Shown here: positions 14,001 to 64,000 of the stretch, piece by piece
Numbering within the stretch: position 1 is the stretch's first letter
Layout: the number at the start of each line of letters is the position of its first letter
Source: a virus
Direction: 5' to 3' (one strand)
Virus record (IMG/VR): IMGVR_UViG_3300044608_002890
DNA length: 64,000 nucleotides
Made by a program: the position numbers and the translations under genes
The notes under the pieces: generated by a model
Told to the model about the DNA's origin: nothing
Database searches by the model: none
What the model saw: the letters and a program-made list of their open reading frames with translations, nothing else

Positions 14001-14505
14001 TGTAGTCAGCATAGGCAAAATTTTACCCAATAGCTTGGCTCTTTTGGCCTACCCCATAAGTAACCGAACAGTAACTATCTCTGGAGTCAGGAGTACATTG
14101 CCCGGACAAAATTATTTTAAACTATTGCTGTGGCGCTGGGGTACTATTGCTGGTGAAACGGTAACTCTTACCTTAACGCCTCAAAATATATTTGATTTGA
14201 ACACCTGGTATGATGTTGAAGTTGATTATGCCGATGGTTTACTTAAACTCATAGTTAACAATGAAACCATTGCAGAATCCGATCAAAACAATGTATTCCC
14301 GCTAAAACCTGCAGCTGCGTTTAATTTAGATAATAATAATACTGCCAAGTTCATACTAGGAAAACCGCCATTGTTGGATTATTATTCTAGTTACACGACA
14401 TCTAGCTGGCGTGGCTATATACGCAGTCTCGAAGTAAAATCCGGAGCCGATGTGCAAGTAAGCCAGGCTGGTGTATACAACGGAACCTATAGATGGTTCT
14501 TGTAA
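8047..14505 (+). CDS. giant (2152 aa) virion protein with several LamG/concanavalin-A-like domains
   Basis: Repeated GTSDFTIE..WxHVxxxR.....FVDG..DSVRVSNIARY LamG signatures. N-terminal GDDATGDGSYEKPFANI..IYPGDY resembles the start of beta-helix (DUF1565-like) proteins. Confidence 0.75.
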   Translation: MAISRSRKNRPIAEDERYFPYFPSAYRAFIKSFPMEARIHVRQPTYVIDKGFLTLEDDTGLFVLENDEKYTLLNPRNVGGDDATGDGSYEKPFANITPAINYVVNQQLKPPMGRWAFVIYPGDYVERGQDVIRKITYPDYRLALFTDTFYNPITKLPADKRYTINGRSKKDNYIGHWALYNQSWTYEFHYIGAGGNTRVLYQNFPDYYDPVTEKYRNNYAVNGSSKLGYLGLWPTIWNSRTKPPTGGFNLHEGSYTFNAPADGYYRVHYYVEHSYTSTRSNIANAVTNQMLINGNIHPGMYWEERYNHYYIDSTCTNPSVNVDLHEKGNIILHGISNIVTDKYLSGTGSYYINSGGGAIIPFEANSGLDLGTSDFTIEGHFNFGRGGRSGSLITNGAGLLGRRAFELTYSGSVFNFKIYDKNSTARTTSLSSRTVNTNVWVHVTVMRKQTEVYMFVDGIQIDRKPTQVSSYVRNVGYVPNVFTYDLANGPGSFYIGGHQSGSVFSDLKYSKGPNVWIDSVRVSNIARYELPNINSPTVFFTAAPGDASNAMILNLSNNIIDTGYDERAMLAYGAVLPTTYSPFDESTNVNASILFTPTNWLRIPNHPAFNLPNDFTIDFRLLQSVGKQDSFCVISKSHPSITSKKSFSIIAKSTGWDLKFSQTGTTWTTRSISTGRPWNDWNSYRLSKNGANIRFYENGILLYSNILPFSNIFASDANITLGSEGDTSTATSAAVLNNIRIVSNAYTTVNAYVPLTTDYGYDFLETTANGTPESDTILLMGQPGNVLTDASLFQHNVIAKYLSSTNTANGNVFGIPLNPFTDVGTGTSYTWDSTDLQYVKFDPSSRFNILQNGTFTLEFWVRNNNPRKANVVDIITTGIKNLPSVNGDLTLALEGSSFKIYTKRPSVNTRDYPGVIKTWNYPTGLSCGSVSNPATWNHFAWVSDAGRWTFYINGSNVVSNVNTGINQVLATTGDPINFNISNGLMVCRPSTRRAFKGSSTSQFIGQLHGLRISNSIRYANAFTRPSEPFVNDAQTEFLEFNGPLTGASQSIASYAVNLQRGRIYMYDNPGILTLGSSDFTIETYIKLTRELPSYTDPSDPGYISTGHAFHWTSTRIALIDQLFLQANYTYYAQAYKEAGIFIGRTELYVLNNSINLGSVQHGMIVDLWYHVAVERVGSTITFYIDGNSVGSTSIAGDFFPHANGNRQLWFGAQKSGGPFSAKFSNFRVSTVARYNGNFTIPQDIFTSDASTRFLGMNQPTLTARIRNTDTAFLYTQGTVDVILDDSPFPAAGASSAITVYGKIRTTTNTPFASDVNKSHLFLYGSIDNPKEPIIDGGQGDYTVEYQLYKYRPWVSGQTLFYVKGSISGFNYIALTTDLSTSRKYRLICPTNNNLSWRDLYLGEFLPELNRWVHVVLMKRNDTLTLIVDGKIVFNLIDAGFKLGNISIALGGRQKGTSTIADGLLISNYRFSRVAQYEARINYPNNGLTSNEALFASNVVALAQFNNENYRRHPSQFAYQSYADGRNHGFEQTIYLANGQHTINVSAITQNRQGIWGGDIMTANGQIIWESRRDARDNSINNLRHPDSSVRGIHIRYAGSKPLYFQNALVNAVDYGSSAKMRYFPANTLSNVNYNPFEVEFTIKQGATKTVIVPDAINPDPDLKNRRRIIYQGRYREIQDIMRGYFLNVGIEGTKLNLNQGGGKITTFENCTFLYPNVTYLGTEYLSAPVTNLTGSGGTQGTGRLLIKRSIFGDTQRRLTKSMFQSSHTAYGNKWWLYRKYPLFVANLDVAAVRNTSRVVMNDVIFNAQVQANSFVVINNNIPAQLTEVAITFKYGSIPTQRYTIAPGANLTPSLLFYGNVVTTASPEFTNTVSIYLPWNGYKTSAQEQTSTIVQLPDIPAGNLLVEAGDEFLLENSDPLIYVYSVPAGVGNVYPRIETTGLLPAKSSYWSIKLSMYRNEPFQRVAPGAYESIWFHGNYLPKGTKGVVSIGKILPNSLALLAYPISNRTVTISGVRSTLPGQNYFKLLLWRWGTIAGETVTLTLTPQNIFDLNTWYDVEVDYADGLLKLIVNNETIAESDQNNVFPLKPAAAFNLDNNNTAKFILGKPPLLDYYSSYTTSSWRGYIRSLEVKSGADVQVSQAGVYNGTYRWFL

Positions 14506-14564: not shown

Positions 14565-17500
14565 ATGGCTCTATCACTTAACATAACTGCATCATTTCCG
14601 AGTACGGCAACTTTGCCCAACTATGCCGTTACTCAGTTGGAAATTGCCAACAGTGCAGTTACTGCTAGGATCATTGATCGAAATACGGTCACAACGGATT
14701 ACATTACCGAAGGTTCTGCTAACCTATATTTTACCAATGCTCGTGCTCGTGATGCTTTGACAGTGACCGGTGGAGCATCGTATGATAGCAGCAATGGCAT
14801 ATTGTCTGTAGGTGGTCCAGGCCTATGGCCCAATACCGACAATGTTGCCGAAGGATCTGCAAATCTTTATTTCACCAATGCTCGAGCACGGGCTGCGATA
14901 TCGGCCTTTGACAATTCCATCATCTATGATGATGTCAACGGTACAATCAAAGCCAACTTAGCGGCCATAGGTGCCATAGGTGGAGGACCCAATGTTATAA
15001 GTGTCAATGGTCAGGTTGGCCTGGTTTATCTAACTACTTTGAACATCATCGAAAGTGGTGATAGCAAATATTTTAGCAATGCTCTAGCACAGGCTGCAAT
15101 TTCTGGCGCCTCGGGCATACTGGTTAATGATGGCACTATCAGCATAGATGATACTGTTGACATCTTAGTAAACAACATAACAGCCAACAGCATAACATTG
15201 GTGGATCAAAACAATGCCCTGGCCAATGTCACTATACTTTATGATGCAAATTCTAATTACATTACTGTAGAAGCCAATATTCGCCCCACTGAGGACAATG
15301 TCTTTACTCTGGGCACTGCAGGATCAAAGTGGAATGAGATCAATGCGCATGAATTGACTGTAGATTTCATAACAGCTACCAGCAACATAACCACCACAGG
15401 CGACATTGTAGCACGAAATCTCTTTGGTAACATCACTGGTGAAGTTCTAAAAACCATTACCATTACAGCTACTGGCAGTACGCTCATCATAGACACGGCC
15501 AATGATCCTGATTTGTTTTTACCACAGGGAACTGTGGTTGATTTTAATGCAAGTTCAGATAGCCTCATAGGCATTGGTTTTGATATAGGTATTGTAGATG
15601 GAAGCAATGTACTGGATAGCTCCAACATTACAGGCATAAGCTACACCGTAGGCAATGATTCTGCAGCCACCTATGCAGACTGGGAAGCCAGCTTTACTGG
15701 TCCCAACACCAGAGTATTGAGCTATGTTATTCCGCAGGGAGCTTCTTCGAATCTCATATACTATGCAACCAGCTATGAAAATTCACGTGGTCGCATCGTA
15801 ACTGCTCCGCCATTTACAACCGATGATCTTACTGAGGGTAACCAGAATTTATACTACACTGATGAACGTGTTCAAGCTGTTTTGTCACTTGTAGTCGATG
15901 CCAATGTTGGCATGTTATATGATGAAGTTTTGAATATTATTAGTCTAGAACAAAACATAGGCACTGACGCAGGTCCAATTTTTGCCAATGTTACCGCTAA
16001 TGCTTTCTTTGGTGGTAACTTCTATGGAACATTCATAGGCAATATTCAAGGTGCTGTGGCTAACCTTAATCATCTAACTACCGATGATTTGGCCGAAGGC
16101 AGCACCAATCGATACTATACCACAGACCGCGTGAGGACTGCTGTATTTGCTGGTCCGGGTCTGACTTATTCATCCATAACCGGTGAATTTGAATTACCCT
16201 TTACTGGCGTTGATGCAGGTACTTATGGCAATCCCAATGCCATAGCAAAAATAACCGTAGATGATTTTGGTAGAATTACCAGTGCCAACAGCATCGGCAT
16301 ACTCATTAATTCTGCCAATGTTCTAGAAACTTCTAATGTTTTCTTCACCAATGCCAGAGTTTGGGCCAATGTTGCTCCACGCATAGCCGAACTCACCACC
16401 ACCAACATAGCCGAAGGTGCCAATCTTTATTTTACAAATGCTCGTGCCCGAGCTGCCATAGGTTCTGAAGATGCCAATTTAATTTACTATGAAAACAATG
16501 GTAAATTCCAGGTCAATGTCACAACTTCGGGTGGTGGGGCAGTAACTAGTGTAAACGGACAGACCGGCATTGTTGTTTTAACAACTGCCAACATAGCCGA
16601 AGATTCCAACCTGTATTTTACCACAGATAGAGTCTGGGCCAACATAGGTGCCAACATTGGTAACCTAAATTTCTGGGTTGCATCACACAATACAACAACA
16701 GGCATTGCAGAAGGCACTAAACTATTCTTTACCAATGCTCGAGCTCGCGCCGCCATACAGGCAGCAGACAACAGCATAATCTATTATGAAGCCAATGGTG
16801 GAATTCAGGCCAATCTAACTGCCATCAACAGTGTCTCAAGTGTCAATGGACAGACTGGAACAGTAGTCCTTACTACTAGCAATGTATATGAAGGTGCCAA
16901 TCTATATTTTACCAATACCAGAACACGGGCAGCCGTAGGAACTGCTAATGCTACTGCGCTGATTTATTATGAAGCCAATGGTAACTTCCAGATTAATGTC
17001 GAAGCAGTTGCAGCAGTTACCAGCGTTAATGAACAGATTGGAGCAGTTTCATTATCTACTAGCAACATTGCAGAGGGTGCCAATCTATACTTCACCAATA
17101 CCAGATCACGAGCAGCCGTAGGTACTGCCAACAGTACTTCATTGATCTACTATGAAGGCAATGGTAATTTTCAGGTCAACATACCAGTTGTGGGTGGTGT
17201 TAACAGTGTCAATGGTCAGACCGGTGTTGTTTCATTAACCACCACCAACATAGCCGAAGGCGACAATTTATACTTCACCAATGCCAGAGTTTGGTCCAAC
17301 ATAGCTTCACGCATCTCAGAGCTAACTACCAGCAACATTGCCGAAGGAGCTAATTTATACTTTACCAATGCCAGAGTTTGGTCTAATGTTGGTCCTCGCA
17401 TTGCAGAGTTAACTACCAGCAACATTGCCGAAGGCTCCAATCTATACTTTACCAATGCCAGAACACGCGCAGCTATTTCTGGTGGCACTGGTGTAACTTA

Positions 17501-19928
17501 CATACAAGCCAATGGTCAAATCAACATAGGTCAAGATGTTTCACCAACTACGGATGTAGAATTTAGAAACATCATCATTACAGGTAATTTAAAGGTTCAA
17601 GGAACACAGACCATAATTAATGCCAGTCAATTGGCTATTTCTGATAACATGGTCTACCTAAATGAATCCACACAACAGGCCATTGCCAATGCAGTAGGTG
17701 ATGGTGCAAATGTTGTTTATACTACTGTTCAGGACCATGGCTATCCTGTTGGTACTGTAGTAAGAGTTACTGACATCACCCCAAATACCTTCAATCAGAC
17801 TAGTTATGTGACCATACTGGCCACCACTAGCAATACCTTCACCATAGCCAATGCCACTACTGATACCTATGTAAGCGGAGGCAATGCCTTTGGCAAATCG
17901 TCCATAAATCCAGACCTAGGCTGGGCCGGTGGATACAATGATGGTACCTATCATCATGCTGGCATGTTCAGAGATGCCACAGACGGTGTATTCAAAGTAT
18001 TTGATAGTTATACTCCTGAACCCGATGCCAATATTTACATAGACACTGCGCATATCTCTTTTAGACTGGCCAATCTGGCTGCCAAGGAATTCATAGGCCC
18101 AGTCATAGGCAATGTCAGCAGTCTAGCAAACCATACTACCAGTAATCTAGTTGAGGGTGCCAACCTTTACTTTACTAATGCCAGAAGCCGCGCAACCGTA
18201 GGCACAGCCAATAGTTCTACGCTCATTTATTACGAAGCCAATGGCAACTTCCAGGTCAATACACCTGTGGTTGGTGGTGTAAACAGCGTCAACGGACAAA
18301 CTGGTGTCGTTACCTTAACTACCAGTAACATTGACGAAGGATCAAATCTATATTTCACCAATGCCAGAGCACGAGCAGCCGTAGGCACTGCGGCTGCTAA
18401 TGCCAAAGGACTGAGCTACGTAGAAAGCACAGGCGAATTTAGCCTGGCTGACAGTGGCGCTACTTCGGGCATCTATGGTACCGCATCGCTCATACCACAG
18501 ATAACCGTTGATCGCTATGGTCGCATCACAGCAGTCAGCAACATAGCTTCTATTTCAGGCGTCAGTAGTGTAAACGGTCAGACTGATACTGTTGTTCTCA
18601 CTACGGCCAATATTGCCGAAAGTGGAAACTTATACTTTACCAGTACACGGGCACGAGCAGCTGTTGGTGCTGTTGGTTCAAATCTTACTTACTATGAAGC
18701 CAATGGTAACTATCAGATTACCATGCCTGGTAGTAATCAGCAAATCATATTTAATAATGGTGGTCAGCTAGGTACTTCGGGAAGTTTAACCTGGGATGGT
18801 AGTTCGTTAAAAGCCACTCTTTTGGAGTCTACTCAGAGTTCTGGAGATGAGGGCGGACAATTAACATTGGCCAATGCGGCAACAAATAGTACATTGAACG
18901 GTCCCATAGCCATTGATATCTATCAAAATAGGCTAAGAATCTTTGAGACCGGTGGTTCCAATCGTGGTGCCTTCATTCCATTGGATGCTGCTAGCACAGG
19001 AGTTGGTAGTAATCTATTGGCCGGTGGTGGGGGTGGTTCTGTTTCAAGTGTAAACGGTCAGACTGGTGCTGTTGTACTCACTACAGCCAATGTAGCTGAA
19101 AGCGGAAATCTATATTTCACCAATGCCCGAGCCAGAGCTGCCATTACAACTGCTGCAGCCAATGCCAAGGGACTTAGCTATGTAGAAAGCACTGGTGAAT
19201 TTAGTCTGGCCGACAGTGGCGCTACTTCGGGCATCTATGGTACCGCATCGCTCATACCACAGATAACCGTTGATCGCTATGGTCGCATCACAGCAGTCAG
19301 CAACGTAGCAGCTGCCGGTGGCGGTGCCAGCAGCAATTCATTTAGCACCATAGTAGTAGCCGGTGGCTCCAATGTTGTAGCGACATCGCCCACTGATACA
19401 CTAACACTTGTAGCCGGTGGTAATGTCACCATCACCACCGATGCAGTCACTGACACCATAACCATATCAGCCATAGCCGGAGGTGGTGGGGCCGGTGGAA
19501 ATCCTTTCGACCAAGATCTGAATACTGCCAATGCCGTACAATTTTCTAGCCTGGGCATAGGTACTCCGGCATCAGGCACTACGGGTGAGATTCGCGCCAC
19601 CAACAACATAACGGCCTATTATTCAGACGACCGCCTCAAGAAGAAATTGGGCAACATAGAAAATGCTCTGGATAAAATTCGATCGCTACAGGGCTTTTAT
19701 TACCAAGCCAACGAAGTGGCTCAGAGTCTGGGCTATGATGTGCGCCGAGAAGTTGGTCTTTCTGCACAGCAGGTACAACGCATCATGCCCGAAGTAGTCA
19801 CAGGAGCGCCCATAGATCAGCAATATCTGACCATCTGGTACGAAAGGCTCATACCCTTGATTGTTGAAGCCATCAAAGAAGTCAAAGAAGAACTAGACCA
19901 ACTCAAGAGGAAGGACCATGGCTCTTAA
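14565..19928 (+). CDS. long tail fibre with C-terminal peptidase S74 intramolecular chaperone
   Basis: About 18 copies of TTxNIAEGxNLYFTNARA and many VxSVNGQTGxV repeats. The C-terminal ITAYYSDDRLKK..IENALDKIRSLQG..VGLSAQQVQRIMPEVV..YERLIPLIVEAIKE is an S74 chaperone signature. Confidence 0.85.
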   Translation: MALSLNITASFPSTATLPNYAVTQLEIANSAVTARIIDRNTVTTDYITEGSANLYFTNARARDALTVTGGASYDSSNGILSVGGPGLWPNTDNVAEGSANLYFTNARARAAISAFDNSIIYDDVNGTIKANLAAIGAIGGGPNVISVNGQVGLVYLTTLNIIESGDSKYFSNALAQAAISGASGILVNDGTISIDDTVDILVNNITANSITLVDQNNALANVTILYDANSNYITVEANIRPTEDNVFTLGTAGSKWNEINAHELTVDFITATSNITTTGDIVARNLFGNITGEVLKTITITATGSTLIIDTANDPDLFLPQGTVVDFNASSDSLIGIGFDIGIVDGSNVLDSSNITGISYTVGNDSAATYADWEASFTGPNTRVLSYVIPQGASSNLIYYATSYENSRGRIVTAPPFTTDDLTEGNQNLYYTDERVQAVLSLVVDANVGMLYDEVLNIISLEQNIGTDAGPIFANVTANAFFGGNFYGTFIGNIQGAVANLNHLTTDDLAEGSTNRYYTTDRVRTAVFAGPGLTYSSITGEFELPFTGVDAGTYGNPNAIAKITVDDFGRITSANSIGILINSANVLETSNVFFTNARVWANVAPRIAELTTTNIAEGANLYFTNARARAAIGSEDANLIYYENNGKFQVNVTTSGGGAVTSVNGQTGIVVLTTANIAEDSNLYFTTDRVWANIGANIGNLNFWVASHNTTTGIAEGTKLFFTNARARAAIQAADNSIIYYEANGGIQANLTAINSVSSVNGQTGTVVLTTSNVYEGANLYFTNTRTRAAVGTANATALIYYEANGNFQINVEAVAAVTSVNEQIGAVSLSTSNIAEGANLYFTNTRSRAAVGTANSTSLIYYEGNGNFQVNIPVVGGVNSVNGQTGVVSLTTTNIAEGDNLYFTNARVWSNIASRISELTTSNIAEGANLYFTNARVWSNVGPRIAELTTSNIAEGSNLYFTNARTRAAISGGTGVTYIQANGQINIGQDVSPTTDVEFRNIIITGNLKVQGTQTIINASQLAISDNMVYLNESTQQAIANAVGDGANVVYTTVQDHGYPVGTVVRVTDITPNTFNQTSYVTILATTSNTFTIANATTDTYVSGGNAFGKSSINPDLGWAGGYNDGTYHHAGMFRDATDGVFKVFDSYTPEPDANIYIDTAHISFRLANLAAKEFIGPVIGNVSSLANHTTSNLVEGANLYFTNARSRATVGTANSSTLIYYEANGNFQVNTPVVGGVNSVNGQTGVVTLTTSNIDEGSNLYFTNARARAAVGTAAANAKGLSYVESTGEFSLADSGATSGIYGTASLIPQITVDRYGRITAVSNIASISGVSSVNGQTDTVVLTTANIAESGNLYFTSTRARAAVGAVGSNLTYYEANGNYQITMPGSNQQIIFNNGGQLGTSGSLTWDGSSLKATLLESTQSSGDEGGQLTLANAATNSTLNGPIAIDIYQNRLRIFETGGSNRGAFIPLDAASTGVGSNLLAGGGGGSVSSVNGQTGAVVLTTANVAESGNLYFTNARARAAITTAAANAKGLSYVESTGEFSLADSGATSGIYGTASLIPQITVDRYGRITAVSNVAAAGGGASSNSFSTIVVAGGSNVVATSPTDTLTLVAGGNVTITTDAVTDTITISAIAGGGGAGGNPFDQDLNTANAVQFSSLGIGTPASGTTGEIRATNNITAYYSDDRLKKKLGNIENALDKIRSLQGFYYQANEVAQSLGYDVRREVGLSAQQVQRIMPEVVTGAPIDQQYLTIWYERLIPLIVEAIKEVKEELDQLKRKDHGS
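18450..19304 (+). repeat. 93-bp identical direct repeat (18450-18542 and 19212-19304) in the tail fibre gene
   Basis: GACAGTGGCGCTACTTCGGG...GCAGTCAGCAAC is identical in both copies and encodes DSGATSGIYGTASLIPQITVDRYGRITAVSN. Confidence 0.9.
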
Positions 19929-55949: not shown

Positions 55950-58169
55950 ATGGAAAACCGAGGTATTCTAGCCCGTCTCATGGCTGTGGAGAACATTACA
56001 GTCGAACATCGCAACATCGAAACTGCTAGTTTCGATGTACTAAATCGTGTGCTCACCCTTCCGACCTGGAAGGCCATGAGCCCCGAGCTCTATGACATGT
56101 TGAGAGCTCATGAAGTTGGTCATGCTCTGGAGACGCCTGCACAGGGTTGGCATGGTACGGTCATTGCTGATCGACGCCTAAAAAGTTTCCTCAACGTAGT
56201 CGAAGATGCTCGCATTGAACGTTTGATCAAGAATCGTTTTCCTGGTCTGCGTCCTAGTTTCGTCAAAGGCTACAAGGAATTGTACGACCAAGACTTTTTT
56301 GGTACGGCCAATAAAAAACTAGACACTCTGCTGCTGGTTGACCGCATCAATTTGCATTTCAAGATTGGCAGTCATCTAAATGTTCCCTTTGACGACTACG
56401 AACAGACCATTGTCGATCGTGTAGCACAAGCTCGTACCTGGGATGATGTTGTGGCCCTGGCCAAGGAAATCTATGACTTCGATGCCGAAGAGCTCAAGCG
56501 TCAAATCGAAGAAAGTCTTGATGCTCAACGCATGCTTTCGGATGGTTTGGGTGATTTGGAATACGACGAAGATGCCGAAGGCCTAGAATCCGAAGAAGAA
56601 GCCGAAGGCGAAACTTCCGATGAACGCCACAAGGTTGGCGGCGATGGTGCCAGTGGTAATGTACATACTCCTGGTCGCAAGGTACTAGATGATTGGTATG
56701 AGTTTAGAAGCGAAACTGATGGTCCAGAAAGCATGACCGACACCATATTCAGACAACGCGAAACAGAACTGCTGGATGAAAAAACTCTGCCCAGAATCTA
56801 TGTTGACGTTCCAACGGCTAACCTAGACAACATCATTGTTCCGCATAAAGTCGTAGCCGATCAATTTAAATTTGTTGCTCTGGAAGGCGCAGAAATTGAC
56901 CAGCATCTCAAGAACAACTTGAAATTTCCAGAGTACAAGGCAGACTTCATGTTGCGCAACAGTAGATTTGTTGATCACATGGTGCGCGAATTCGAGATCA
57001 AACGCAATGCTCGTCAGATGGCCAGAGCCGGCAGTGCCAAGACAGGTGCATTGAACCTCAAGAAGGTACATCAATACAAGTTGACCGATGACCTGTTCCA
57101 ACGGCTAACAGTTGTACCCAAAGGCAAGAATCATGGCATGATCATGATGTTTGATCAGAGCGGCAGCATGGGCGAATACTATGGCCAGACTTTGGAACAG
57201 ATAGTTGTACTCAGCATGTTCTGTCGTAAGATTAATGTACCATTCCATGTCTATGGGTTTACCGACAATACCGATCATCTTCCCAACAACCAAAGATATG
57301 TTGAGCGTGCAAGTTTCTCAAGCAACGTTGGTGAAATTGCTTTCCATGGTCGGAATTATTTTACTCTGCGCGAATATTTTTCACATACACAGACATCAAC
57401 AGAATTCAAAGCCATGGTGGACAGAGTTTTGATATTGGCTGCTAGTTGGCGTAGGCGTAGTAGCTACATGGTTAGCATGTTGCCCTTGAGCGAACGTCTG
57501 TGTGGTACTCCCTTGAACGAAGCCATTGCCAGTCTCATAGAAATGGTTCCGGCCTTCAAAAAAGCTCATAGGTTGGACATTGTAAACACCATTCTGCTTA
57601 CCGATGGTGAAAGCAACAATGCTCTGAGTTCTTTTGTTGCCAATACAGATACCACTGAAAATTCACGACCCAAGACCGCAAACTATGTACATCGTTATGC
57701 TGGCTCAACTTATCTTTGCTTTAGGCACAAGGTCAGCAAATTAGAAGTGCAGACTTTGACCCATCACGACAATCGTGATGCAAGAACTACTGCGGCCTTG
57801 CTGCGGTTGATGTCCTCAATTACGGGTGCCCGTACCATTGGCTACTTTATTTCCGAAGGACACCGCAATCGTTTGCGTGAATGGTACAAAAGCAATCATG
57901 AACTATCCAATCCTAATTCCGAAGAAACTTTTGCCGAGTCAGCCGCTCTTGAAATTAGAAAACATGGTTATTGGTTATCCAAGGATGAACTGTTGACTGG
58001 TTACAAGAACTATTTCAGAGTAAGCGGTAAGTTCCTGGACTTCAAAGAAGAATCGTTGGAAGTTGATAGTGCAAATACCAAGGATCTTCGCAAGGCATTT
58101 GCCAAGTTACATGGTGACAAACGCAAGCATCGTTTACTTCTTAGTAATTTTATTGAGCAGATTGCTTGA
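55950..58169 (+). CDS. HExxH-containing vWA-domain protein (CobT-like partner of a MoxR-type ATPase)
   Basis: N-terminal HEVGH and LNVVEDARIE; MIDAS elements DQSGS, GTP and LTDGE. Confidence 0.8.
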   Translation: MENRGILARLMAVENITVEHRNIETASFDVLNRVLTLPTWKAMSPELYDMLRAHEVGHALETPAQGWHGTVIADRRLKSFLNVVEDARIERLIKNRFPGLRPSFVKGYKELYDQDFFGTANKKLDTLLLVDRINLHFKIGSHLNVPFDDYEQTIVDRVAQARTWDDVVALAKEIYDFDAEELKRQIEESLDAQRMLSDGLGDLEYDEDAEGLESEEEAEGETSDERHKVGGDGASGNVHTPGRKVLDDWYEFRSETDGPESMTDTIFRQRETELLDEKTLPRIYVDVPTANLDNIIVPHKVVADQFKFVALEGAEIDQHLKNNLKFPEYKADFMLRNSRFVDHMVREFEIKRNARQMARAGSAKTGALNLKKVHQYKLTDDLFQRLTVVPKGKNHGMIMMFDQSGSMGEYYGQTLEQIVVLSMFCRKINVPFHVYGFTDNTDHLPNNQRYVERASFSSNVGEIAFHGRNYFTLREYFSHTQTSTEFKAMVDRVLILAASWRRRSSYMVSMLPLSERLCGTPLNEAIASLIEMVPAFKKAHRLDIVNTILLTDGESNNALSSFVANTDTTENSRPKTANYVHRYAGSTYLCFRHKVSKLEVQTLTHHDNRDARTTAALLRLMSSITGARTIGYFISEGHRNRLREWYKSNHELSNPNSEETFAESAALEIRKHGYWLSKDELLTGYKNYFRVSGKFLDFKEESLEVDSANTKDLRKAFAKLHGDKRKHRLLLSNFIEQIA

Positions 58170-58194
58170 CAGTCGAAGAAATTCGTGCTAGAAT
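58166..58194 (+). promoter_or_regulatory. sigma70-type (early) promoter TTGACA-17 bp-TAGAAT with extended -10 TG
   Basis: Overlaps the vWA gene stop; upstream of GGAG and ATG 58221. Confidence 0.8.
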
Positions 58195-58220
58195 AGCATT
58201 ACATATATCATGGAGCCTGT

Positions 58221-59402
58221 ATGAAATACACTGATCTTAGCAAAAAGTCCCTGGTTGAAAAGCTTCTTTCGGACAATGGTCCCAGGGTCGATCGCCGTAC
58301 CATCGAAGCCGCAGCCCAGGCCATGGGCTTGCCTTTTCCCAGATTCATCATCGACAACAACAATCTTAAGGTTGGTCGTGGCATTTGGGATCTTGGTAAT
58401 TTTGATCCCGCTGTCCCTGCACCTGTTGCTAGTTATGAGCAACTAGCTGCACCAGCCCTGGCTGCTTCGGTTACGGCCATTGAGACTGTGCGCCAAAAGC
58501 GACTCATGAATGAGTTTGTTGATCTAGTTCCCGAAGAAGATGCTAACTTTGTTAGCCATGGCTTCTTCAGGGACCTTACTCAGATCATTCGCAGCAAGGA
58601 TTTCTTTCCGGTGTTCATTACGGGCCTGAGCGGCAATGGCAAAACCAGCATGGTTGAGCAGGTATGTGCTCGCCTAAAACGCGAAATGTTTCGTGTGAAC
58701 ATCAGCATTGAGACCGACGAAGACGATCTCATTGGTGGTGCTACGCTGGTGGATGGTAACGTTGTATATCGTGAAGGTCCAGTGTTGACTGCCATGCGTC
58801 GTGGTGCAGTGTTGTTGCTTGACGAAGTCGATCGTGGCAGCAACAAGTTGCTTTGCTTGCAGAGTGTGCTAGAAGGTAAGTCCTACCTGAATAAAAAGAC
58901 TGGTGAAGTAGTTCGTCCAGCTCCGGGCTTTACGGTGGTTGCCACAGCCAATACCAAGGGTCGTGGTACTGAAGATGGCAAGTACATTGCTGCGCAGATC
59001 CTGGACGAAGCATTCCTGGAGCGTTTCAGCATCACAGTCGAGCAAGAATATGCTGAACCCAAGGTAGAGAAAAAGATAGTCATGAACTACATGGCTAAAT
59101 ACAACATATCAGATGAAGATTTTGCTTCGAAGCTTGTGGCTTGGGCCGATATCATTCGCCGTACTCATTCCGAAGGCGGTGTGGATGAAATTATTAGTAC
59201 CCGCCGTCTGGTGGATGTGGTCAAGACCTTCAGTAAGTTCAATGATCGTAAAAAAGCCATTGAGCTCTGTACCAACCGTTTCGATGAAGAAACCAAGTTA
59301 GCCTTCCGTGAACTGTATGCCAAATTGGAAGCTCCTCCGGTCCCCGAAGAAGTTGCTCCAGCAGCTCCTTCTGTAGACCCCAGTGTAGAGATTCCTTTCT
59401 AA
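58221..59402 (+). CDS. MoxR/CobS-like AAA+ ATPase
   Basis: GLSGNGKT, LLLDE, ATANTKGRG, DEAFLERF, STRRL; typical 'cobS' of T4-like marine phages. Confidence 0.9.
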   Translation: MKYTDLSKKSLVEKLLSDNGPRVDRRTIEAAAQAMGLPFPRFIIDNNNLKVGRGIWDLGNFDPAVPAPVASYEQLAAPALAASVTAIETVRQKRLMNEFVDLVPEEDANFVSHGFFRDLTQIIRSKDFFPVFITGLSGNGKTSMVEQVCARLKREMFRVNISIETDEDDLIGGATLVDGNVVYREGPVLTAMRRGAVLLLDEVDRGSNKLLCLQSVLEGKSYLNKKTGEVVRPAPGFTVVATANTKGRGTEDGKYIAAQILDEAFLERFSITVEQEYAEPKVEKKIVMNYMAKYNISDEDFASKLVAWADIIRRTHSEGGVDEIISTRRLVDVVKTFSKFNDRKKAIELCTNRFDEETKLAFRELYAKLEAPPVPEEVAPAAPSVDPSVEIPF

Positions 59403-59410
59403 GGAGTATT

Positions 59411-60127
59411 ATGCAAAGTCTTAAGAATGATAAACATGTTCTGACGGTCATCACGCCCACCATTGGGCGTGATATTTTGGATCGTCAGATTGAGAGCATT
59501 GATGCACAGACCGTAGCCGGTCAAATTTTTCACCTCATCATGTGGGATGAAAAGCGAATCGATGCAGGCATAGACCCCATGTCCTACAACGGTCCCAATC
59601 GTTACAGCATGGTCTTGCCCTGGGGGTTGGGACGGTACAAAGGAGCTCCAGGATCTAGTTTGAGAGCCGTAGCACTCATGGCTGCTAATACTACTTGGGT
59701 AACATTCGCTGACGATGATGTAGTATGGCGACCGACGCATGCTGAAAGCATGCTTAGAGCTGCCAACGGCCATCATTGGGCCGCTTGTCTGCGTCACATC
59801 TATGCACCAGGATCAGGTACCAGATTCCAAGAACAAGGGCGTGGTGAATATCTGGGCATAGACAGATTTGAGAGTGTGGGCGATGATCCAAATCGCAACG
59901 TACCCTATGAAATGATAGATAATAATTGCCTGATGTTCAATCGCATTCTGGGTGTGCATGCTGCACATCTGTATCGCCTGATCGAAGGTCCTGGTGATGA
60001 CCGACACTTTTATGCCTTCATGAAGCAAAATGCCGGACCCTTGGCACGTACCAACGAAGCCACCATCGAACATACATGCCCAGACCATCTCATAGACTTC
60101 TTTAGTCAAAACTGCAGCAAGGAATAG
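59411..60127 (+). CDS. GT2-like glycosyltransferase
   Basis: LTVITPTIGR..WVTFADDD (DxD)..GDD. Confidence 0.75.
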   Translation: MQSLKNDKHVLTVITPTIGRDILDRQIESIDAQTVAGQIFHLIMWDEKRIDAGIDPMSYNGPNRYSMVLPWGLGRYKGAPGSSLRAVALMAANTTWVTFADDDVVWRPTHAESMLRAANGHHWAACLRHIYAPGSGTRFQEQGRGEYLGIDRFESVGDDPNRNVPYEMIDNNCLMFNRILGVHAAHLYRLIEGPGDDRHFYAFMKQNAGPLARTNEATIEHTCPDHLIDFFSQNCSKE

Positions 60128-60129
60128 AC

Positions 60130-60840
60130 ATGTCCAACAAATACATTTGCTATAGCTTCTGGGGAGAAGACGAGCGTTTCAGTCTAGGCGCAGTTAAAAA
60201 TGCCGAACTAGCTCGTACACATCTGCCAGACTGGCAGGTCATCATGTATCATGATGACACTGTTCCCACCAAGTATATTCGTATACTTAACAACATGAGT
60301 CATGTAGAGGTTCGCAACATAGCCACCATAGATCCAGGCTATAAGATGGTGCACGGAGCATTCTGGCGTTTCTTGCCCATGTTTGAACGCGAAGGCCATT
60401 TTATCATGCGAGACACCGACAGCCGACTGACCAAGCGTGAAGCAAGGGCCGTTGAAGAATGGGTGAGCTCGGATCGTACCTTTCATGTAATTCGCGATCA
60501 TGAAGCCCATTATGAATGGCCAGTATTGGCAGGCATGTGGGGCATCAAAGGTGTAGTACATCCTTTCTTTCATGAACAAATGAAAAAGTATTGGCTGGCC
60601 AACTTTTATACAGTTGACCAGGTTTATTTGGCACAGGTACTTTGGCCAGCAGTCCAGCAGAGTGTGCTGGTTCATGGCATGCGTGAAGGTGGTTGGTTTG
60701 CCGACACCAGAAAGAATGTTGGCTACAATTTTGTTGGTGAGGGTTGGTATGAAGATGACACACCAATCTATAGCTTTGACATGCCCAGCCGTAAGTTCAA
60801 CAAGGGGCAAGAGAAAAACGTCTATAATTCGAGTCTGTAA
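60130..60840 (+). CDS. conserved glycosyltransferase-like hypothetical protein
   Basis: ICYSFWG..GAVKNA..FWRFLP..RDTDSRL..EARAVEEW..HVIRDH..LAGMWG..DQVYL; lies in a glycan cluster. Confidence 0.55.
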   Translation: MSNKYICYSFWGEDERFSLGAVKNAELARTHLPDWQVIMYHDDTVPTKYIRILNNMSHVEVRNIATIDPGYKMVHGAFWRFLPMFEREGHFIMRDTDSRLTKREARAVEEWVSSDRTFHVIRDHEAHYEWPVLAGMWGIKGVVHPFFHEQMKKYWLANFYTVDQVYLAQVLWPAVQQSVLVHGMREGGWFADTRKNVGYNFVGEGWYEDDTPIYSFDMPSRKFNKGQEKNVYNSSL

Positions 60841-61529
60841 TGTTCAAAAGATTATTAGTCTACCATCATTTAGGTCTTGGTGACCATTTTATTTGCAACG
60901 CACTTGTACATCATTTTGCGGAAAACTTTGCCGAAGAAATATGGTTGCCAGTCAAAGAAGCTAATCTACCAACTGTCAAGCATCTCTATGAAGATCATGA
61001 AAACATCAAAATCATAAGTACTTCGGAAAATGAATATCATAAAGAGATTCTTGGTATAAATAACCTCAGCACCCAATACAATGTACCTTTGCTTAAAATT
61101 GGTTTCAATGGCGACAACAGCAAAGAATTTGATCGCTCATTCTATGACCAAGTTGGTTTGGATTTTGACCTTAGATGGGCCGGATTCAAAGCTCCGTATA
61201 ATGATCAATCAGCCATGGATTTCTACAATGAGATCATAGGCAATGGTGAGCCCTATGCTCTGGTTCATGATACTGGCAGCATAGGATCTTTCAATTTGAA
61301 TCTAGATACAAATCTACGCATCATTAAAATACAGGCTGGTCTCACCGACAGTCTTTTGAACTGGAAATCTATCATAGAAAATGCCGAAGAAATTCATTGC
61401 ATAGACAGCAGCGTAATTCATCTTGTTGATAGTCTTAGGGTTGGGGCTTCTAGGTTAGTATTTCATGATGTTGGTCGACCAAGTAAATTCAACTTATTTT
61501 ATGAGTGGGAGCGAAAGACATATAAATGA
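60840..61529 (+). CDS. GT-B-like glycosyltransferase-like hypothetical protein
   Basis: HHLGLGDHFICNALV..IIENAEEIHCIDSSVIHL resembles GT9-like GLGD and xDSS motifs. Confidence 0.5.
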   Translation: MFKRLLVYHHLGLGDHFICNALVHHFAENFAEEIWLPVKEANLPTVKHLYEDHENIKIISTSENEYHKEILGINNLSTQYNVPLLKIGFNGDNSKEFDRSFYDQVGLDFDLRWAGFKAPYNDQSAMDFYNEIIGNGEPYALVHDTGSIGSFNLNLDTNLRIIKIQAGLTDSLLNWKSIIENAEEIHCIDSSVIHLVDSLRVGASRLVFHDVGRPSKFNLFYEWERKTYK

Positions 61530-62248
61530 TGAACATTGTCATACCCATGGCCGGACTGGGCAGTAGATTTGCCGAAGCTGGTTTTAGTATCCCCAAGCCG
61601 CTGATTCCGGTCAATGGCGAAGCAATGATCAGCAAAGCAGTTAAAAGCCTAAACCTACAGGGCCAGTATTATTTTATACTGTCAAGTAATTCTTATACCA
61701 AGCACATAATAGAAGTACTTGAAAGCATCGTCAAAAAACCGCATTTTTGCATCATAGATTATGTTACAAACGGTCCAGCTTCCTCAGTGCAGTTGGTTAG
61801 CGAACATATAAATAATTCTGATGAACTAGTTGTTGCCAACTGTGACCAGATCATGACCTGGAACAGTGCAGCATTTTTACATAATGCCAGACTATACGAT
61901 GGTTGTTTAGTGACCTATCATTCGGATACTACTAAAAATAGTTATGCTAAACTCAATGCCAAGGGTCTAGTAACTGAAGTCCGAGAAAAACAAGTTATTA
62001 GTAACGTAAGTCTTAACGGTATCCACTATTGGAAGCAGGGTCGGTATTTTTGCGACTCATATGAAGCCATGGTCCAAAATAATGATACAGCACCTAATGG
62101 TGAGTTTTATGTAGGACCTTCGTACAACTATATGATTAGAAATAACAGGATAGTAGGTATCTATCATATTCCTAACGAACAACATCATCCAGTAGGTGTG
62201 CCCGATGATCTTAAAGCATATCTACAGTTTGAGAATAACACCTTATGA
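61526..62248 (+). CDS. sugar-phosphate nucleotidyltransferase-like protein (NTP_transferase fold)
   Basis: IVIPMAGLGSRF..PKPLI..TNGPA..ANCDQ..SYAK..EVREK..NGEFYVGPSYN. Confidence 0.85.
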   Translation: MMNIVIPMAGLGSRFAEAGFSIPKPLIPVNGEAMISKAVKSLNLQGQYYFILSSNSYTKHIIEVLESIVKKPHFCIIDYVTNGPASSVQLVSEHINNSDELVVANCDQIMTWNSAAFLHNARLYDGCLVTYHSDTTKNSYAKLNAKGLVTEVREKQVISNVSLNGIHYWKQGRYFCDSYEAMVQNNDTAPNGEFYVGPSYNYMIRNNRIVGIYHIPNEQHHPVGVPDDLKAYLQFENNTL

Positions 62249-62260
62249 AAGAAGGAGAAG

Positions 62261-62953
62261 ATGGCAACAGATCTTGAAAAAATTGAAGCGTTTTTAGTCT
62301 ATGAGGTTGGAATTTGTCCAACCAATGACAATCATTTTGGTGGCAATCCAGAAGCACAGGCACAGTTAAATTTAAAAATTCAACAGCGTCCAGCTGAGCT
62401 AGCCAATTTGATTTATTTTCTTTTTAACAGAAAAGCGGCCGGTGAAAAGCTAGACTATTATGCTGAGATAGGTGCCTGTTCTGGTGGTACTACATTCTCC
62501 ATAAACAAATTTTTAAACTTCAAAGAGTTGTTGATTATTGATGACGGTGGAGCTGAAGCCGTTCATTATATCAATGCACGTGGCAATCAACTAAGAAGTC
62601 AAAATCTAGGTACAATTCCTCGCATAGAAATCATAGGTTCCTCTGCTGAACAGCGTGTCATTGACATGAGCAAACATATAGCTAGCAAACAACTATATGA
62701 CATTCTTTTTATTGATGGTGATCATAGCTATGAAGGTGTAAAAAATGATACTATTAATTACCTATCCATAGTTAGGTCTGGCGGTTATGTAATTTTTCAT
62801 GACACTAACCACATCAAAGGCATCATGGATTGGATGCAAGAAATACCATCGAGAGTTCCTGAATTAGAATTTGTTAATAAATTTAGTTTTAAAGACTCAT
62901 ACACAGATAGATTTCCAACTGGTATAGGAATTACTATTTTCAGAAAGTCATAG
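62261..62953 (+). CDS. class I SAM methyltransferase (Methyltransf_24-like)
   Basis: AEIGACSGGT, DILFIDGDHSYEGVKND, GGYVIFHD. Confidence 0.85.
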   Translation: MATDLEKIEAFLVYEVGICPTNDNHFGGNPEAQAQLNLKIQQRPAELANLIYFLFNRKAAGEKLDYYAEIGACSGGTTFSINKFLNFKELLIIDDGGAEAVHYINARGNQLRSQNLGTIPRIEIIGSSAEQRVIDMSKHIASKQLYDILFIDGDHSYEGVKNDTINYLSIVRSGGYVIFHDTNHIKGIMDWMQEIPSRVPELEFVNKFSFKDSYTDRFPTGIGITIFRKS

Positions 62954-62954
62954 C

Positions 62955-63278
62955 ATGCAAGTAATGAAGTTGACAGATTTTACTAGAGGATGGTTCATAG
63001 GAAATTTTGACCCTAGTATTTTAAAAACCAAAGATTTCGAAGTTGGCGTTCTCACGCACAAAAAACATGAAGTATGGCCCAGACACTATCATAAAATTGG
63101 TACAGAGTATAATGTATTAGTTTCAGGAAGTATGACAGTGGCCAATACCCTTATTGGTCCTGGTGATGTATTTGTGTTTAATCCCCTGGACGTTGCTGAT
63201 CCTGTTTTTCATGAAGATTGTATTGTGGTATGCGTAAAGGTACCCAGTATACCTGGAGATAAGTATGAACTTGTTTAA
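62955..63278 (+). CDS. small cupin-fold protein
   Basis: FTRGWFIGNFDPS..FEVGV..HYHKIGTEYN..GDVFVFNP..VCVKVPS. Confidence 0.7.
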   Translation: MQVMKLTDFTRGWFIGNFDPSILKTKDFEVGVLTHKKHEVWPRHYHKIGTEYNVLVSGSMTVANTLIGPGDVFVFNPLDVADPVFHEDCIVVCVKVPSIPGDKYELV

Positions 63279-64000
63279 AGAAAAGAGTGAAATAGATTCA
63301 TCCAAATACTTTATAGCTACCTATGCTGCTATTTCAAAAACTACGCTCAAAGAATTGGCCTGGGATATAGCGGTTGGACAAAGTGTAGGTAACCCCAATG
63401 TTAGAAGTAAATGGGAAGACGATGCGTTATTTGAAACACATAGCTGTCTCATCCTAAACAATCAACAAGAGCTTGAAAACACTAACCGTGGCATCATAGA
63501 GATTGCTTTTCCGGTAGCCAACATAGACCTAGAGACCGACGGCGTTAATCATTTAATCTGTCAGCTCATGGGTGGGCATACTGACATAGATATCGTTCAG
63601 AGATGCAGGCTCATTGATCTAGACTTGCCCGATTGCATGAAAACAGTTTTCAAAGGACCTAAATTTGGTCTTTCAGGGCTAAGAAAAATAACTGGTAATT
63701 ATAACAAGCCCTTGTTGGGCGGCATAATTAAACCTAAAATTGTACATAAGAAACATGTGCTTGAAGATATGGTCAGAGCACTCATAGATGGAGGTGTCGA
63801 TTTCATCAAAGAAGATGAAATCATGAGCAGTGTACCTCATCTTCCTCTGGAGCAACGTGTAGACATAGTTGCCAATCTACTTGCCAAAGCAAACTATAAG
63901 CTGGCCTATTGTCATACCATCAATTGCGATCCGCATGATTTACAAAATCGCATCAACACAGTTGTTGAATTGGGCGGCAATGGGGTTCATATCAACATTT
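63265..64000 (+). CDS. RuBisCO-like protein (form IV-type), 5' part, truncated by the window edge
   Basis: Open from ATG 63265 to the end of the window: MNLFKEK..IAVGQSVG..IAFPVANID..GPKFGLSGLR..PLLGGIIKPK..GGVDFIKEDEIM..GVHINI. Missed by the ORF track because it has no stop. Confidence 0.88.
   Translation, partial: MNLFKEKSEIDSSKYFIATYAAISKTTLKELAWDIAVGQSVGNPNVRSKWEDDALFETHSCLILNNQQELENTNRGIIEIAFPVANIDLETDGVNHLICQLMGGHTDIDIVQRCRLIDLDLPDCMKTVFKGPKFGLSGLRKITGNYNKPLLGGIIKPKIVHKKHVLEDMVRALIDGGVDFIKEDEIMSSVPHLPLEQRVDIVANLLAKANYKLAYCHTINCDPHDLQNRINTVVELGGNGVHINI

What the first reader, a model, noticed from the sequence alone, without database searches (positions are those of the whole stretch)
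63265..64000. Phage-encoded RuBisCO-like protein missed by the ORF track
Seen: a 245-codon open frame to the window edge with GPKFGLSGLR, IIKPK (K175/K177 equivalents) and FIKEDE (carbamylated K201/D203/E204 equivalents, 63808-63819). The N-terminal AAESSTG motif reads AVGQSVG and the GN(123) motif reads GGH, so it is a form IV RLP and not a carboxylase. Its start overlaps the cupin stop, in an operon with a nucleotidyltransferase, a methyltransferase and GTs. Established: characterised RLPs catalyse enolisation, transcarboxylation or decarboxylation on sugar-phosphate-like substrates (methionine salvage, apionate and hamamelose-related catabolism). Inference: this is a biosynthetic use of the RuBisCO fold, making an unusual and possibly branched-chain or carboxylated sugar for a phage glycan.
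Basis: partly seen in the sequence, partly recalled or inferred. Interest (0 to 1): 0.8.

Follow-up and report, generated by a model that had tools for sequence, protein, structure and literature searches.

The report
Phage RuBisCO-like enzyme in sugar-activation cassette
A T4-like phage carries a RuBisCO relative that lacks the residues needed to fix CO2 and that sits beside, and in other genomes is fused to, a sugar-activating enzyme and a small cupin, so it probably helps build an unusual activated sugar, a job never tested for this enzyme family.

Summary
Window 63265-63999 (+) is an open 245-codon frame cut by the window edge. It is the first 245 of about 397 residues of a RuBisCO-like protein (RLP).

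- **Active site:** it keeps K175, K177, K201, D203 and E204. E60 and N123 are both Gly. Full-length relatives also lack H294 (Gln), K334 (Tyr) and R295, so it is not a carboxylase.
- **Family:** it falls far below the NCBIfam cut-offs for MtnW, OiaX and form III. It lies in a well-supported separate clade with viral, Patescibacteria and Beckwithbacteria sequences. This is the "form IV-like" phage clade reported by Jaffe et al. 2019, whose function is unknown.
- **Partners:** a homologue of the window's nucleotidyltransferase is present in 76 of 80 viral loci and the cupin in 55 of 80. Natural fusions exist: 29 RLP-NTase, 3 NTase-RLP and 2 RLP-NTase-cupin.
- **A fourth partner:** a miniature GDPD-like phosphodiesterase follows the RLP in 62 of 80 loci. 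Here it would lie beyond the window.

My best reading is Mg/carbamate-dependent enolisation of a monophosphorylated keto-sugar that feeds the nucleotidyltransferase in a glycan island. The "carboxylated or branched sugar" idea has no support. This scan has already noted the same cassette on other DNA (87 notes, at least 54 genomes). The clade is published; I found no paper on the cassette or a biosynthetic role.

The parts
63265..64000 (+). RuBisCO-like protein, first 245 of about 397 residues, cut by the window edge. It holds the KPK lysines (63724-63738) and the K-E-D-E metal/carbamate motif (63808-63819).
62955..63278 (+). 107-aa minimal cupin with invariant H44, H46, E51 and G58 (motif HxHx4Ex6G, nt 63084-63128). 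It is a cassette partner, and its stop overlaps the RLP start by 14 nt.
   Evidence: Present in 55 of 80 viral loci. Alignment A1. Model pLDDT 95. Nearest folds are the about 100-aa Thermococcus phosphomannose isomerases, Z 12.4, but many cupins tie. Matches phrog_24762, function unknown.
62261..62953 (+). Methyltransf_24 / CmcI-like SAM methyltransferase, inserted between the nucleotidyltransferase and the cupin. It is an accessory gene, not part of the core cassette.
   Evidence: Pfam E = 1.1e-11. A homologue is present in only 7 of 80 loci.
61526..62248 (+). Sugar-phosphate nucleotidyltransferase (GLGSRF loop at 61553-61570), the obligate cassette partner of the RLP.
   Evidence: Pfam NTP_transf_3 and NTP_transferase. 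Present in 76 of 80 viral loci. Fused to the RLP in 34 proteins. Nearest solved structure is 4evw, function unknown.
60840..61529 (+). 229-aa protein of a mostly viral family. A GT9-like identity is only a weak lead.
   Evidence: No Pfam, NCBIfam or PHROG match. Atlas: clusters 83-95% viral; the GT9 cluster scores 0.91.
60130..60840 (+). 236-aa protein of a mostly viral family, a probable GT-A type glycosyltransferase (lead only).
   Evidence: No Pfam match. Atlas neighbours are named putative glycosyltransferase; GT8 and Nucleotid_trans clusters score 0.92-0.93.
59411..60127 (+). GT2-like glycosyltransferase (weak match), the first gene of the island after the CobS-like gene.
   Evidence: Pfam Glycos_transf_2, E = 3.8e-4, below the cut-off. 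NCBIfam TuaG, E = 2e-4. phrog_14775 glycosyltransferase.

Best explanation
The frame is the N-terminal 62% of an intact, non-carboxylating RuBisCO-like protein. It belongs to the 'form IV-like' clade found in phages and in Patescibacteria and Beckwithbacteria.

It is one enzyme of a mobile cassette made of a nucleotidyltransferase, a cupin and the RLP, often followed by a mini GDPD-like phosphodiesterase. The cassette sits inside glycan islands rich in glycosyltransferases and methyltransferases.

The most likely mechanism has these steps:
1. The carbamylated Lys (K201 equivalent) together with D203 and E204 binds Mg2+.
2. K175 and K177 abstract a proton next to the carbonyl of a monophosphorylated keto-sugar. 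The P1 phosphate site (S379, G381, G403, G404) is kept. The P2 site is remodelled.
3. The enediolate is reprotonated, giving an isomerised or epimerised sugar phosphate.
4. The small metal-type cupin, best read as a sugar-phosphate isomerase, completes the rearrangement.
5. The nucleotidyltransferase converts the product into a nucleotide-activated donor used by the neighbouring transferases.

Shown: family, clade, residue pattern, synteny and fusions. Inferred: the substrate class, the order of steps and the glycan destination.
For: - **Family:** PF00016 match for the window copy and at E = 1.4e-30 for the full-length orthologue.
- **Residue table:** K175, K177, K201, D203, E204, S379, G381, G403 and G404 are kept. 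G60, N65, N66, G123, I173, Q294, K/S295, H/Q327 and Y334 replace the carboxylase set.
- **Separate clade:** 47 sequences, SH-aLRT 99, stem length 1.89. The window copy is sister to L001, support 100.
- **Synteny:** nucleotidyltransferase in 76 of 80 and cupin in 55 of 80 viral loci, on the same strand, typically at -1010 and -310 nt from the RLP start.
- **Fusions:** 29 RLP-NTase, 3 NTase-RLP and 2 RLP-NTase-cupin chains, whose NTase and cupin domains are homologous to the window's genes.
- **Cellular copies:** the same cassette occurs in a Verrucomicrobiae chromosome, Patescibacteria, Beckwithbacteria, Balneola and Sphingobacteriales. In Patescibacteria it lies among six GT2 genes and methyltransferases.
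- **Neighbours:** recurrent viral neighbours are GT2, GT17, GT1, FkbM and Methyltransf_24 methyltransferases and an SDR epimerase/dehydratase.
- **No redox enzyme in the core:** the core cassette holds no oxidoreductase, so a ready-made ketose phosphate is the most economical substrate (inference).
- **Cupin fold:** nearest to the about 100-aa archaeal phosphomannose isomerases.
Against: - No substrate or product is known for any clade member. Everything about chemistry is inference from residues and neighbours.
- The cupin fold match is generic, with many cupins within 1 Z unit.
- H294, a catalytic His kept in MtnW and RuBisCO, is Gln here. The proton-transfer machinery may therefore differ from known RLPs.
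- The role of the mini GDPD-like partner does not follow from this scheme. That partner is absent from two cellular genomes that carry the rest of the cassette.
- The C-terminal 152 residues of this copy could not be seen.
Confidence: 0.55

Rival explanations
1. The nucleotidyltransferase acts first. The RLP and cupin then remodel a nucleotide-linked keto-sugar by epimerisation or keto-isomerisation, with the RLP 'P1' site holding the diphosphate.
For: Fusion chains in both domain orders do not fix the order of steps. An SDR 4,6-dehydratase/epimerase-type gene, which could supply an NDP-keto-sugar, neighbours the cassette in 25 of 80 loci. The CapF cupin domain, which acts on nucleotide sugars, is among the fold matches.
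Against: The core cassette has no oxidoreductase to create the keto group. The SDR is missing from most loci and from the visible part of this window. All characterised RLPs and RuBisCOs act on sugar phosphate monoesters (established knowledge; Carter et al. 2018, cited in PMC6389311).
Confidence: 0.15
2. The cassette is an analogue of the methionine-salvage steps MtnW-MtnX-MtnD: an enolase (RLP), a phosphoesterase (mini GDPD) and an acireductone-type dioxygenase (cupin). It would cleave a diketo-sugar phosphate, with the nucleotidyltransferase running in the pyrophosphorolysis direction.
For: RLP, phosphoesterase and metal-type cupin (H44, H46, E51) co-occur. The MtnW model is among the best NCBIfam matches.
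Against: MtnW cut-offs are missed by a wide margin: 142 against 409 bits and 120 against 514 bits. No other mtn genes are nearby. The neighbours are glycosyltransferases and methyltransferases. The cupin lacks the conserved motif-2 His. The mini GDPD is dispensable in some genomes.
Confidence: 0.07
3. One reading: the RLP carboxylates, transcarboxylates or decarboxylates a sugar phosphate, as OiaT and OiaX do, to make a branched or carboxylated sugar.
For: OiaX is the top NCBIfam hit for the 245-aa fragment, E = 2.3e-28. K175, K177, K201, D203 and E204 are retained.
Against: K334, E60, N123 and H294 are all replaced. The full-length orthologue scores 124 bits against the OiaX cut-off of 700. 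The OiaX reference keeps H294, R295 and K334 and lies in another clade.
Confidence: 0.06
4. It is an auxiliary metabolic gene that boosts host carbon fixation or nucleotide salvage (the AMP/form III pathway), unrelated to glycans.
For: Form III is the top NCBIfam model for the full-length orthologue, at 153 bits. Jaffe et al. raised host-metabolism augmentation as a possibility.
Against: The carboxylase residues are missing. The form III cut-off of 497 bits is not met. No AMP phosphorylase, R15P isomerase or phosphoribulokinase is among the recurrent neighbours. The partners are a nucleotidyltransferase and a cupin instead.
Confidence: 0.03
5. This copy is a decaying remnant (pseudogene), and the open frame up to the window edge is fortuitous.
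For: The C-terminal third is not visible in the window.
Against: There are 245 codons without a stop. The copy is 72-78% identical to intact 397-aa relatives. Every clade-invariant motif in the visible part is present. The start is translationally coupled to the cupin gene. An unchecked note on an overlapping window of the same genome describes the gene as continuing into later motifs.
Confidence: 0.02

Closest known systems
'Form IV-like' RuBisCO-related proteins of phages and Beckwithbacteria (Jaffe, Castelle, Dupont and Banfield 2019, Mol Biol Evol 36:435; PMC6389311)
   Same: It is a divergent RLP on Myoviridae-type and large phage contigs, grouping with Beckwithbacteria and set apart from the other RLP clades. 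Here the window protein falls in a clade with 26 viral sequences plus Beckwithbacteria and Patescibacteria MAG sequences.
   Different: The paper left the function 'unclear'. In the passages I read, it reports no nucleotidyltransferase or cupin partners, no fusions and no glycan context. I did not compare against the paper's own sequences.
MtnW / YkrW, 2,3-diketo-5-methylthiopentyl-1-phosphate enolase (methionine salvage)
   Same: Same fold. Mg2+ site on a carbamylated Lys plus D203 and E204. Only one phosphate site is kept. E60 and N123 are lost. The S-x-G and GG..HGHP phosphate loops are similar.
   Different: It scores 142 and 120 bits against cut-offs of 409 and 514. It keeps K177. It has Gln where the form I reference has H294. 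It has no mtn neighbours. The nearest MtnW-like sequences (P0041-P0050) form a separate, well-supported clade.
OiaX / OiaT RLPs of D-apiose catabolism (Carter et al. 2018, Nat Chem Biol)
   Same: RLPs that act on a phosphorylated oxo-sugar acid through an enediolate. OiaX is the best NCBIfam match of the 245-aa fragment.
   Different: 124 bits against a cut-off of 700. OiaX keeps H294, R295 and K334 and sits next to a four-carbon acid-sugar kinase in catabolic operons. The phage clade sits next to a nucleotidyltransferase in glycan islands.
Type II phosphomannose isomerase / GDP-mannose pyrophosphorylase (AlgA, XanB type: nucleotidyltransferase domain plus cupin isomerase domain)
   Same: A sugar-phosphate nucleotidyltransferase is paired, or in P0002 and P0005 fused, with a small metal-type cupin whose nearest folds are mini phosphomannose isomerases.
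   Different: The likeness to AlgA/XanB rests on my own knowledge and was not tested by alignment. Here an RLP is the third, constant member, and no phosphomutase is present.

Membership tests
RuBisCO large-subunit superfamily (PF00016 / PF02788) | Significant match to the catalytic-domain HMM above the gathering score | tested here: met
   PF00016: 52.4 bits for the fragment (cut-off 30.1) and 107 bits for the full-length orthologue L001. The N-domain PF02788 match is weak: 17.2 bits against 20.7.
Bona fide carboxylating RuBisCO (forms I-III) | Full catalytic set: E60, N123, K175, K177, K201, D203, E204, H294, H327, K334 | tested here: not met
   G60 and G123 are seen in the window. Q294 and Y334 hold in all clade members. 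H327 is Gln in the window's subclade. TIGR03326 scores 153 bits against a cut-off of 497.
MtnW (TIGR03332 / NF007095 equivalogs) | Score above the curated equivalog cut-off | tested here: not met
   142.5 against 409 bits and 119.9 against 513.6 bits for the full-length orthologue. 97 and 77 bits for the fragment.
MtnW (TIGR03332 / NF007095 equivalogs) | Methionine-salvage gene neighbourhood (mtnA, mtnB, mtnX, mtnD, mtnK) | tested here: not met
   The recurrent neighbours are a nucleotidyltransferase, cupin, mini GDPD, methyltransferases and GTs. None of the neighbour clusters I annotated is an mtn family.
OiaX (NF042437) | Score above the curated equivalog cut-off, and a four-carbon acid-sugar kinase neighbour | tested here: not met
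   123.7 against 700 bits. The reference OiaX locus has the kinase. The phage loci do not, among the clusters annotated.
Phage/Beckwithbacteria 'form IV-like' RLP clade (Jaffe et al. 2019) | Phylogenetic grouping with phage and Beckwithbacteria sequences, apart from the other RLP clades | tested here: met
   Clade of 47 sequences (SH-aLRT 99) holding the window copy, 26 viral sequences and the Beckwithbacteria and Patescibacteria MAG copies. It is separate from the OiaX, Ykr-like and form I references.
Nucleotidyltransferase-cupin-RLP(-mini GDPD) cassette (operational definition from this scan) | Homologous nucleotidyltransferase within about 3 kb on the same strand | tested here: met
   Window NTase at 61526-62248, 1.0 kb upstream of the RLP. 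Homologues are in 76 of 80 viral loci.
Nucleotidyltransferase-cupin-RLP(-mini GDPD) cassette (operational definition from this scan) | Small H-x-H...E cupin directly adjacent | tested here: met
   Window cupin at 62955-63278 overlaps the RLP start. Present in 55 of 80 loci.
Nucleotidyltransferase-cupin-RLP(-mini GDPD) cassette (operational definition from this scan) | About 148-aa GDPD-like protein after the RLP | not testable with these tools
   No homologue lies inside the window. It would sit beyond the window end. In the closest relative, L001, it follows an FkbM methyltransferase. An unchecked note on an overlapping window of the same genome reports that same order.

The most novel reading that the evidence does not exclude
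This branch of the RuBisCO superfamily is an anabolic enzyme. Working with, or fused to, a nucleotidyltransferase and a mini cupin isomerase, it would turn a central-metabolism ketose phosphate into a so-far undescribed nucleotide-activated sugar or phospho-sugar donor. That donor would serve glycans made by phages, CPR bacteria and a few other bacteria. This would be the first glycan-building role for the RuBisCO fold.
Probability: 0.5. Interest if true: 0.75.

Novelty: new variant of a known kind. Interest (0 to 1): 0.6.

Why it matters
Every characterised RuBisCO-like protein works in catabolism or salvage: methionine salvage, apiose breakdown and related routes. A clade that is locked to, and repeatedly fused with, a sugar-activating enzyme points to an anabolic use of the enolisation chemistry, and possibly to an unknown nucleotide sugar.

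The clade is large. About 1,250 clusters at 90% identity score E <= 1e-60 against the fragment, and 175 viral contigs in IMG/VR encode a relative. A functional assignment would therefore annotate many phage and CPR genes at once.

The natural single-chain RLP-NTase-cupin fusions make the hypothesis directly testable in vitro. For phage biology, it would identify what the variable glycan islands of aquatic T4-like phages actually make.

Tried and rejected
- **Recovering the rest of the gene failed.**
  - No whole genome is held for this window.
  - A 60-mer from the window end has no exact match in metagenome contigs or viral contigs.
  - The near-length protein search found nothing closer than 78% identity.
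- **GenBank phages:** no DNA or protein match. PHROGs has no family for the RLP, so no cultured-phage homologue was found.
- **Plasmids:** only distant RLPs below 32% identity, namely OiaX and form I. I used these as references.
- **MtnW, OiaX and form III membership:** rejected on the curated cut-offs.
- **His of 'GGH' as catalytic residue:** rejected, because it is conserved in under 70% of viral orthologues. The two Gly and the following D-I are invariant.
not found among the 20 most recurrent neighbour clusters I annotated.
- **SAR11 as a regular carrier:** only the single-cell assembly itself, 1 of 151 Pelagibacteraceae genomes sampled, has the gene, on a 6.3-kb contig. That copy may be phage DNA.
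- **Literature:** searches for RLP with nucleotidyltransferase and cupin, or with glycosyltransferase and nucleotide sugar, found no functional study.
- **Promoter/terminator scan and base composition of the island:** nothing informative.

Full report
**Observation.** Window 63265-63999 (+) is an ATG-started frame of 245 codons that runs off the window end without a stop. The quoted motifs are all present:
- AVGQSVGNP at residues 36-44
- MGGHTDID at 102-109
- GPKFGLSGLR at 131-140
- IIKPK at 154-158

The ATG lies 14 nt inside the preceding cupin ORF (62955-63278). The match to RuBisCO_large is significant: Pfam E = 6e-14, NCBIfam models E = 1e-22 to 1e-28, and 175 IMG/VR contigs encode a relative at E down to 8e-119.

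**Is the gene whole?** The frame stops only because the window does. All 77 complete viral orthologues are 374-419 aa, median 397. The 120 best database relatives are 369-399 aa, nearly all 395-399. About 152 residues are therefore missing. I could not recover them:
- No genome is held for the window.
- A 60-mer from the window end is absent from the metagenome and viral collections.
- The nearest database protein is 78% identical.

An unchecked first-reader note on an overlapping window of the same genome describes the gene continuing into the later motifs, followed by an FkbM methyltransferase and a phosphodiesterase-like gene. That is the order seen in the closest relative, L001.

**Genomic setting.** The window is from a T4-like myophage. 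PHROGs matches include large terminase, tail sheath, portal, scaffold, major head protein, helicase, an SbcC-like nuclease and a CobT/CobS-like pair. After the CobS-like gene, seven genes run head to tail on the + strand with gaps or overlaps of 12 nt or less:
- a GT2-like gene
- two genes of mostly viral families, with weak GT-A and GT9 leads
- a sugar-phosphate nucleotidyltransferase
- a Methyltransf_24 enzyme
- a 107-aa cupin
- the RLP

**What kind of RLP.** I aligned it to a form I reference taken from an annotated plasmid.
- Kept across the clade: K175, K177, K201, D203, E204, S379, G381, G403, G404.
- Replaced: E60 to G, T65 and W66 to N and mostly N, N123 to G, T173 to I, H294 to Q, K334 to Y, G380 to C.
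- R295 is Lys in most members and Ser in the window's subclade. H327 is His in most members and Gln in that subclade.

The metal/carbamate site, the two lysines and the P1 phosphate cradle therefore survive. The residues that position and add CO2, and most of the P2 phosphate site, do not. It is not a carboxylase.

The full-length orthologue misses every curated equivalog cut-off by a wide margin: form III 153 against 497 bits, MtnW 142 against 409 bits, OiaX 124 against 700 bits.

In a maximum-likelihood tree, 47 sequences form one clade with SH-aLRT 99 and a stem of 1.89 changes per column. The clade holds the window copy, viral orthologues, fusion proteins and cellular copies from Verrucomicrobiae, Patescibacteria, Beckwithbacteria and others. 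It is separate from the OiaX, MtnW-like and form I references. The window copy is sister to L001 inside an all-viral subclade, and viral and cellular sequences are interleaved.

This is the 'form IV-like' phage/Beckwithbacteria clade already reported by Jaffe et al. 2019, who called its function unclear.

**Functional partners.**
- Among 80 viral loci, a homologue of the window's nucleotidyltransferase is present in 76 and the cupin in 55. They are on the same strand, typically starting 1010 and 310 nt before the RLP. The window differs only in having the methyltransferase inserted between them.
- In the large protein database, 34 proteins fuse these genes: 29 RLP-NTase, 3 NTase-RLP and 2 RLP-NTase-cupin. 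The fused domains are 30-54% identical to the window's separate genes.
- Clustering of neighbours revealed a fourth partner, a protein of about 148 aa directly after the RLP in 62 of 80 loci. It has no Pfam match. It carries the invariant HR, EN, ExD and GH(D) motifs. Its confident model (pLDDT 96) matches GDPD/PLD-family chains in 21 of the top 22 rows (Z 8.0-11.3) before a drop to Z 7.2.
- That partner is not in the window. It is also absent from two cellular genomes that hold RLP, NTase and cupin, so it is not obligatory.
- The cupin has the metal-type motif H44-x-H46-x4-E51-x6-G58. Its model (pLDDT 95) lies nearest the about 100-aa Thermococcus phosphomannose isomerases (Z 12.4, rmsd 1.8 Å, 91 residues aligned). 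Many other cupins tie within one Z unit, so this is a lead only.
- Other recurrent neighbours are GT2, GT17 and GT1 transferases, FkbM and Methyltransf_24 methyltransferases, an SDR epimerase/dehydratase and radical-SAM proteins. No kinase, HAD phosphatase or mutase appeared among the clusters I annotated.
- In a Patescibacteria genome the cassette is embedded among six GT2 genes and methyltransferases. In the Verrucomicrobiae chromosome it stands alone.

**Mobility.** The window's major head protein is only 38% identical to that of the phage carrying the closest RLP, which is 72% identical. The cassette therefore moves between distantly related phages.

**Mechanism.** The retained residues are those that all RuBisCO-family enzymes use to bind Mg2+ and stabilise an enediolate next to a carbonyl. 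One phosphate site is kept. The core cassette has no oxidoreductase.

The most economical reading has three steps:
1. Enolisation, meaning isomerisation or epimerisation, of a monophosphorylated ketose taken from central metabolism.
2. Further isomerisation by the cupin.
3. Nucleotide activation for the neighbouring transferases.

The family, the residue pattern and the linkage are shown. The substrate, the order of steps and the acceptor are inferred.

The rival readings are given separately with their odds:
- remodelling at the nucleotide-sugar level
- a MtnW-MtnX-MtnD-like cleavage module
- carboxylation or branching
- a carbon-fixation auxiliary gene
- a pseudogene

**Novelty and score.** The clade is published. 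The searched literature, about 8.4 million papers and preprints, holds no paper that links RLPs to a nucleotidyltransferase and a cupin. This scan has noted the same cassette repeatedly on other DNA: 87 notes in at least 54 genomes. I tested its main claims here.

One earlier claim needs care. Only 1 of 151 Pelagibacteraceae genomes sampled has the gene, on a 6.3-kb contig of a single-cell assembly.

I rate this a new variant of a known kind, interest 0.6.

Noticed in passing
window 55950-59402: A CobT-like vWA 'peptidase' (phrog_459) and a CobS-like AAA ATPase (phrog_249) sit directly upstream of the glycan island. From memory, this pair is typical of aquatic T4-like phages.
   Followed up: no
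window 8047-14505 and 14565-19928: Two very long ORFs of 2152 and 1787 aa lie upstream of the terminase/structural block. I did not annotate them.
   Followed up: no
L082 (Pelagibacteraceae single-cell assembly, 6.3-kb contig): The only SAR11-labelled copy of the cassette lies on a short contig. 150 other Pelagibacteraceae genomes sampled have no match at E <= 1e-40. It may be DNA of an infecting phage rather than a SAR11 gene.
   Followed up: partly
L088 (Verrucomicrobiae chromosome) and L090 (Sphingobacteriales): These genomes hold RLP, nucleotidyltransferase and cupin but no mini GDPD-like gene anywhere. The phosphodiesterase is therefore an optional cassette member.
   Followed up: yes
RLP clade, columns equivalent to R295 and H327: There are two active-site subtypes. 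Most members, including all the cellular copies, have K (or R) at 295 and H at 327. The window's subclade (L001, L004, L015 and others) has S295/Q327. This may reflect a different distal group on the substrate.
   Followed up: partly
P0042 (534 aa): A transketolase N-terminal domain is fused to an RLP of the separate MtnW-like clade. This is a different fusion from the cassette fusions.
   Followed up: no
P0200 (397 aa, 78% identical to the window fragment): The closest database relative is labelled 'Chitinophagia bacterium' MAG in NCBI and lies on a contig of up to 63 kb. It may be a phage contig binned into a bacterial MAG.
   Followed up: no
L001 / G001: The phage with the closest RLP has a 399,796-bp genome that CheckV rates complete. 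Its major head protein is only 38% identical to the window's, so the cassette is shared by distantly related large phages.
   Followed up: partly
window 60130-60840 and 60840-61529: Both island proteins belong to mostly viral families (83-97% viral members) with no Pfam family. The Atlas holds both sequences letter for letter.
   Followed up: partly
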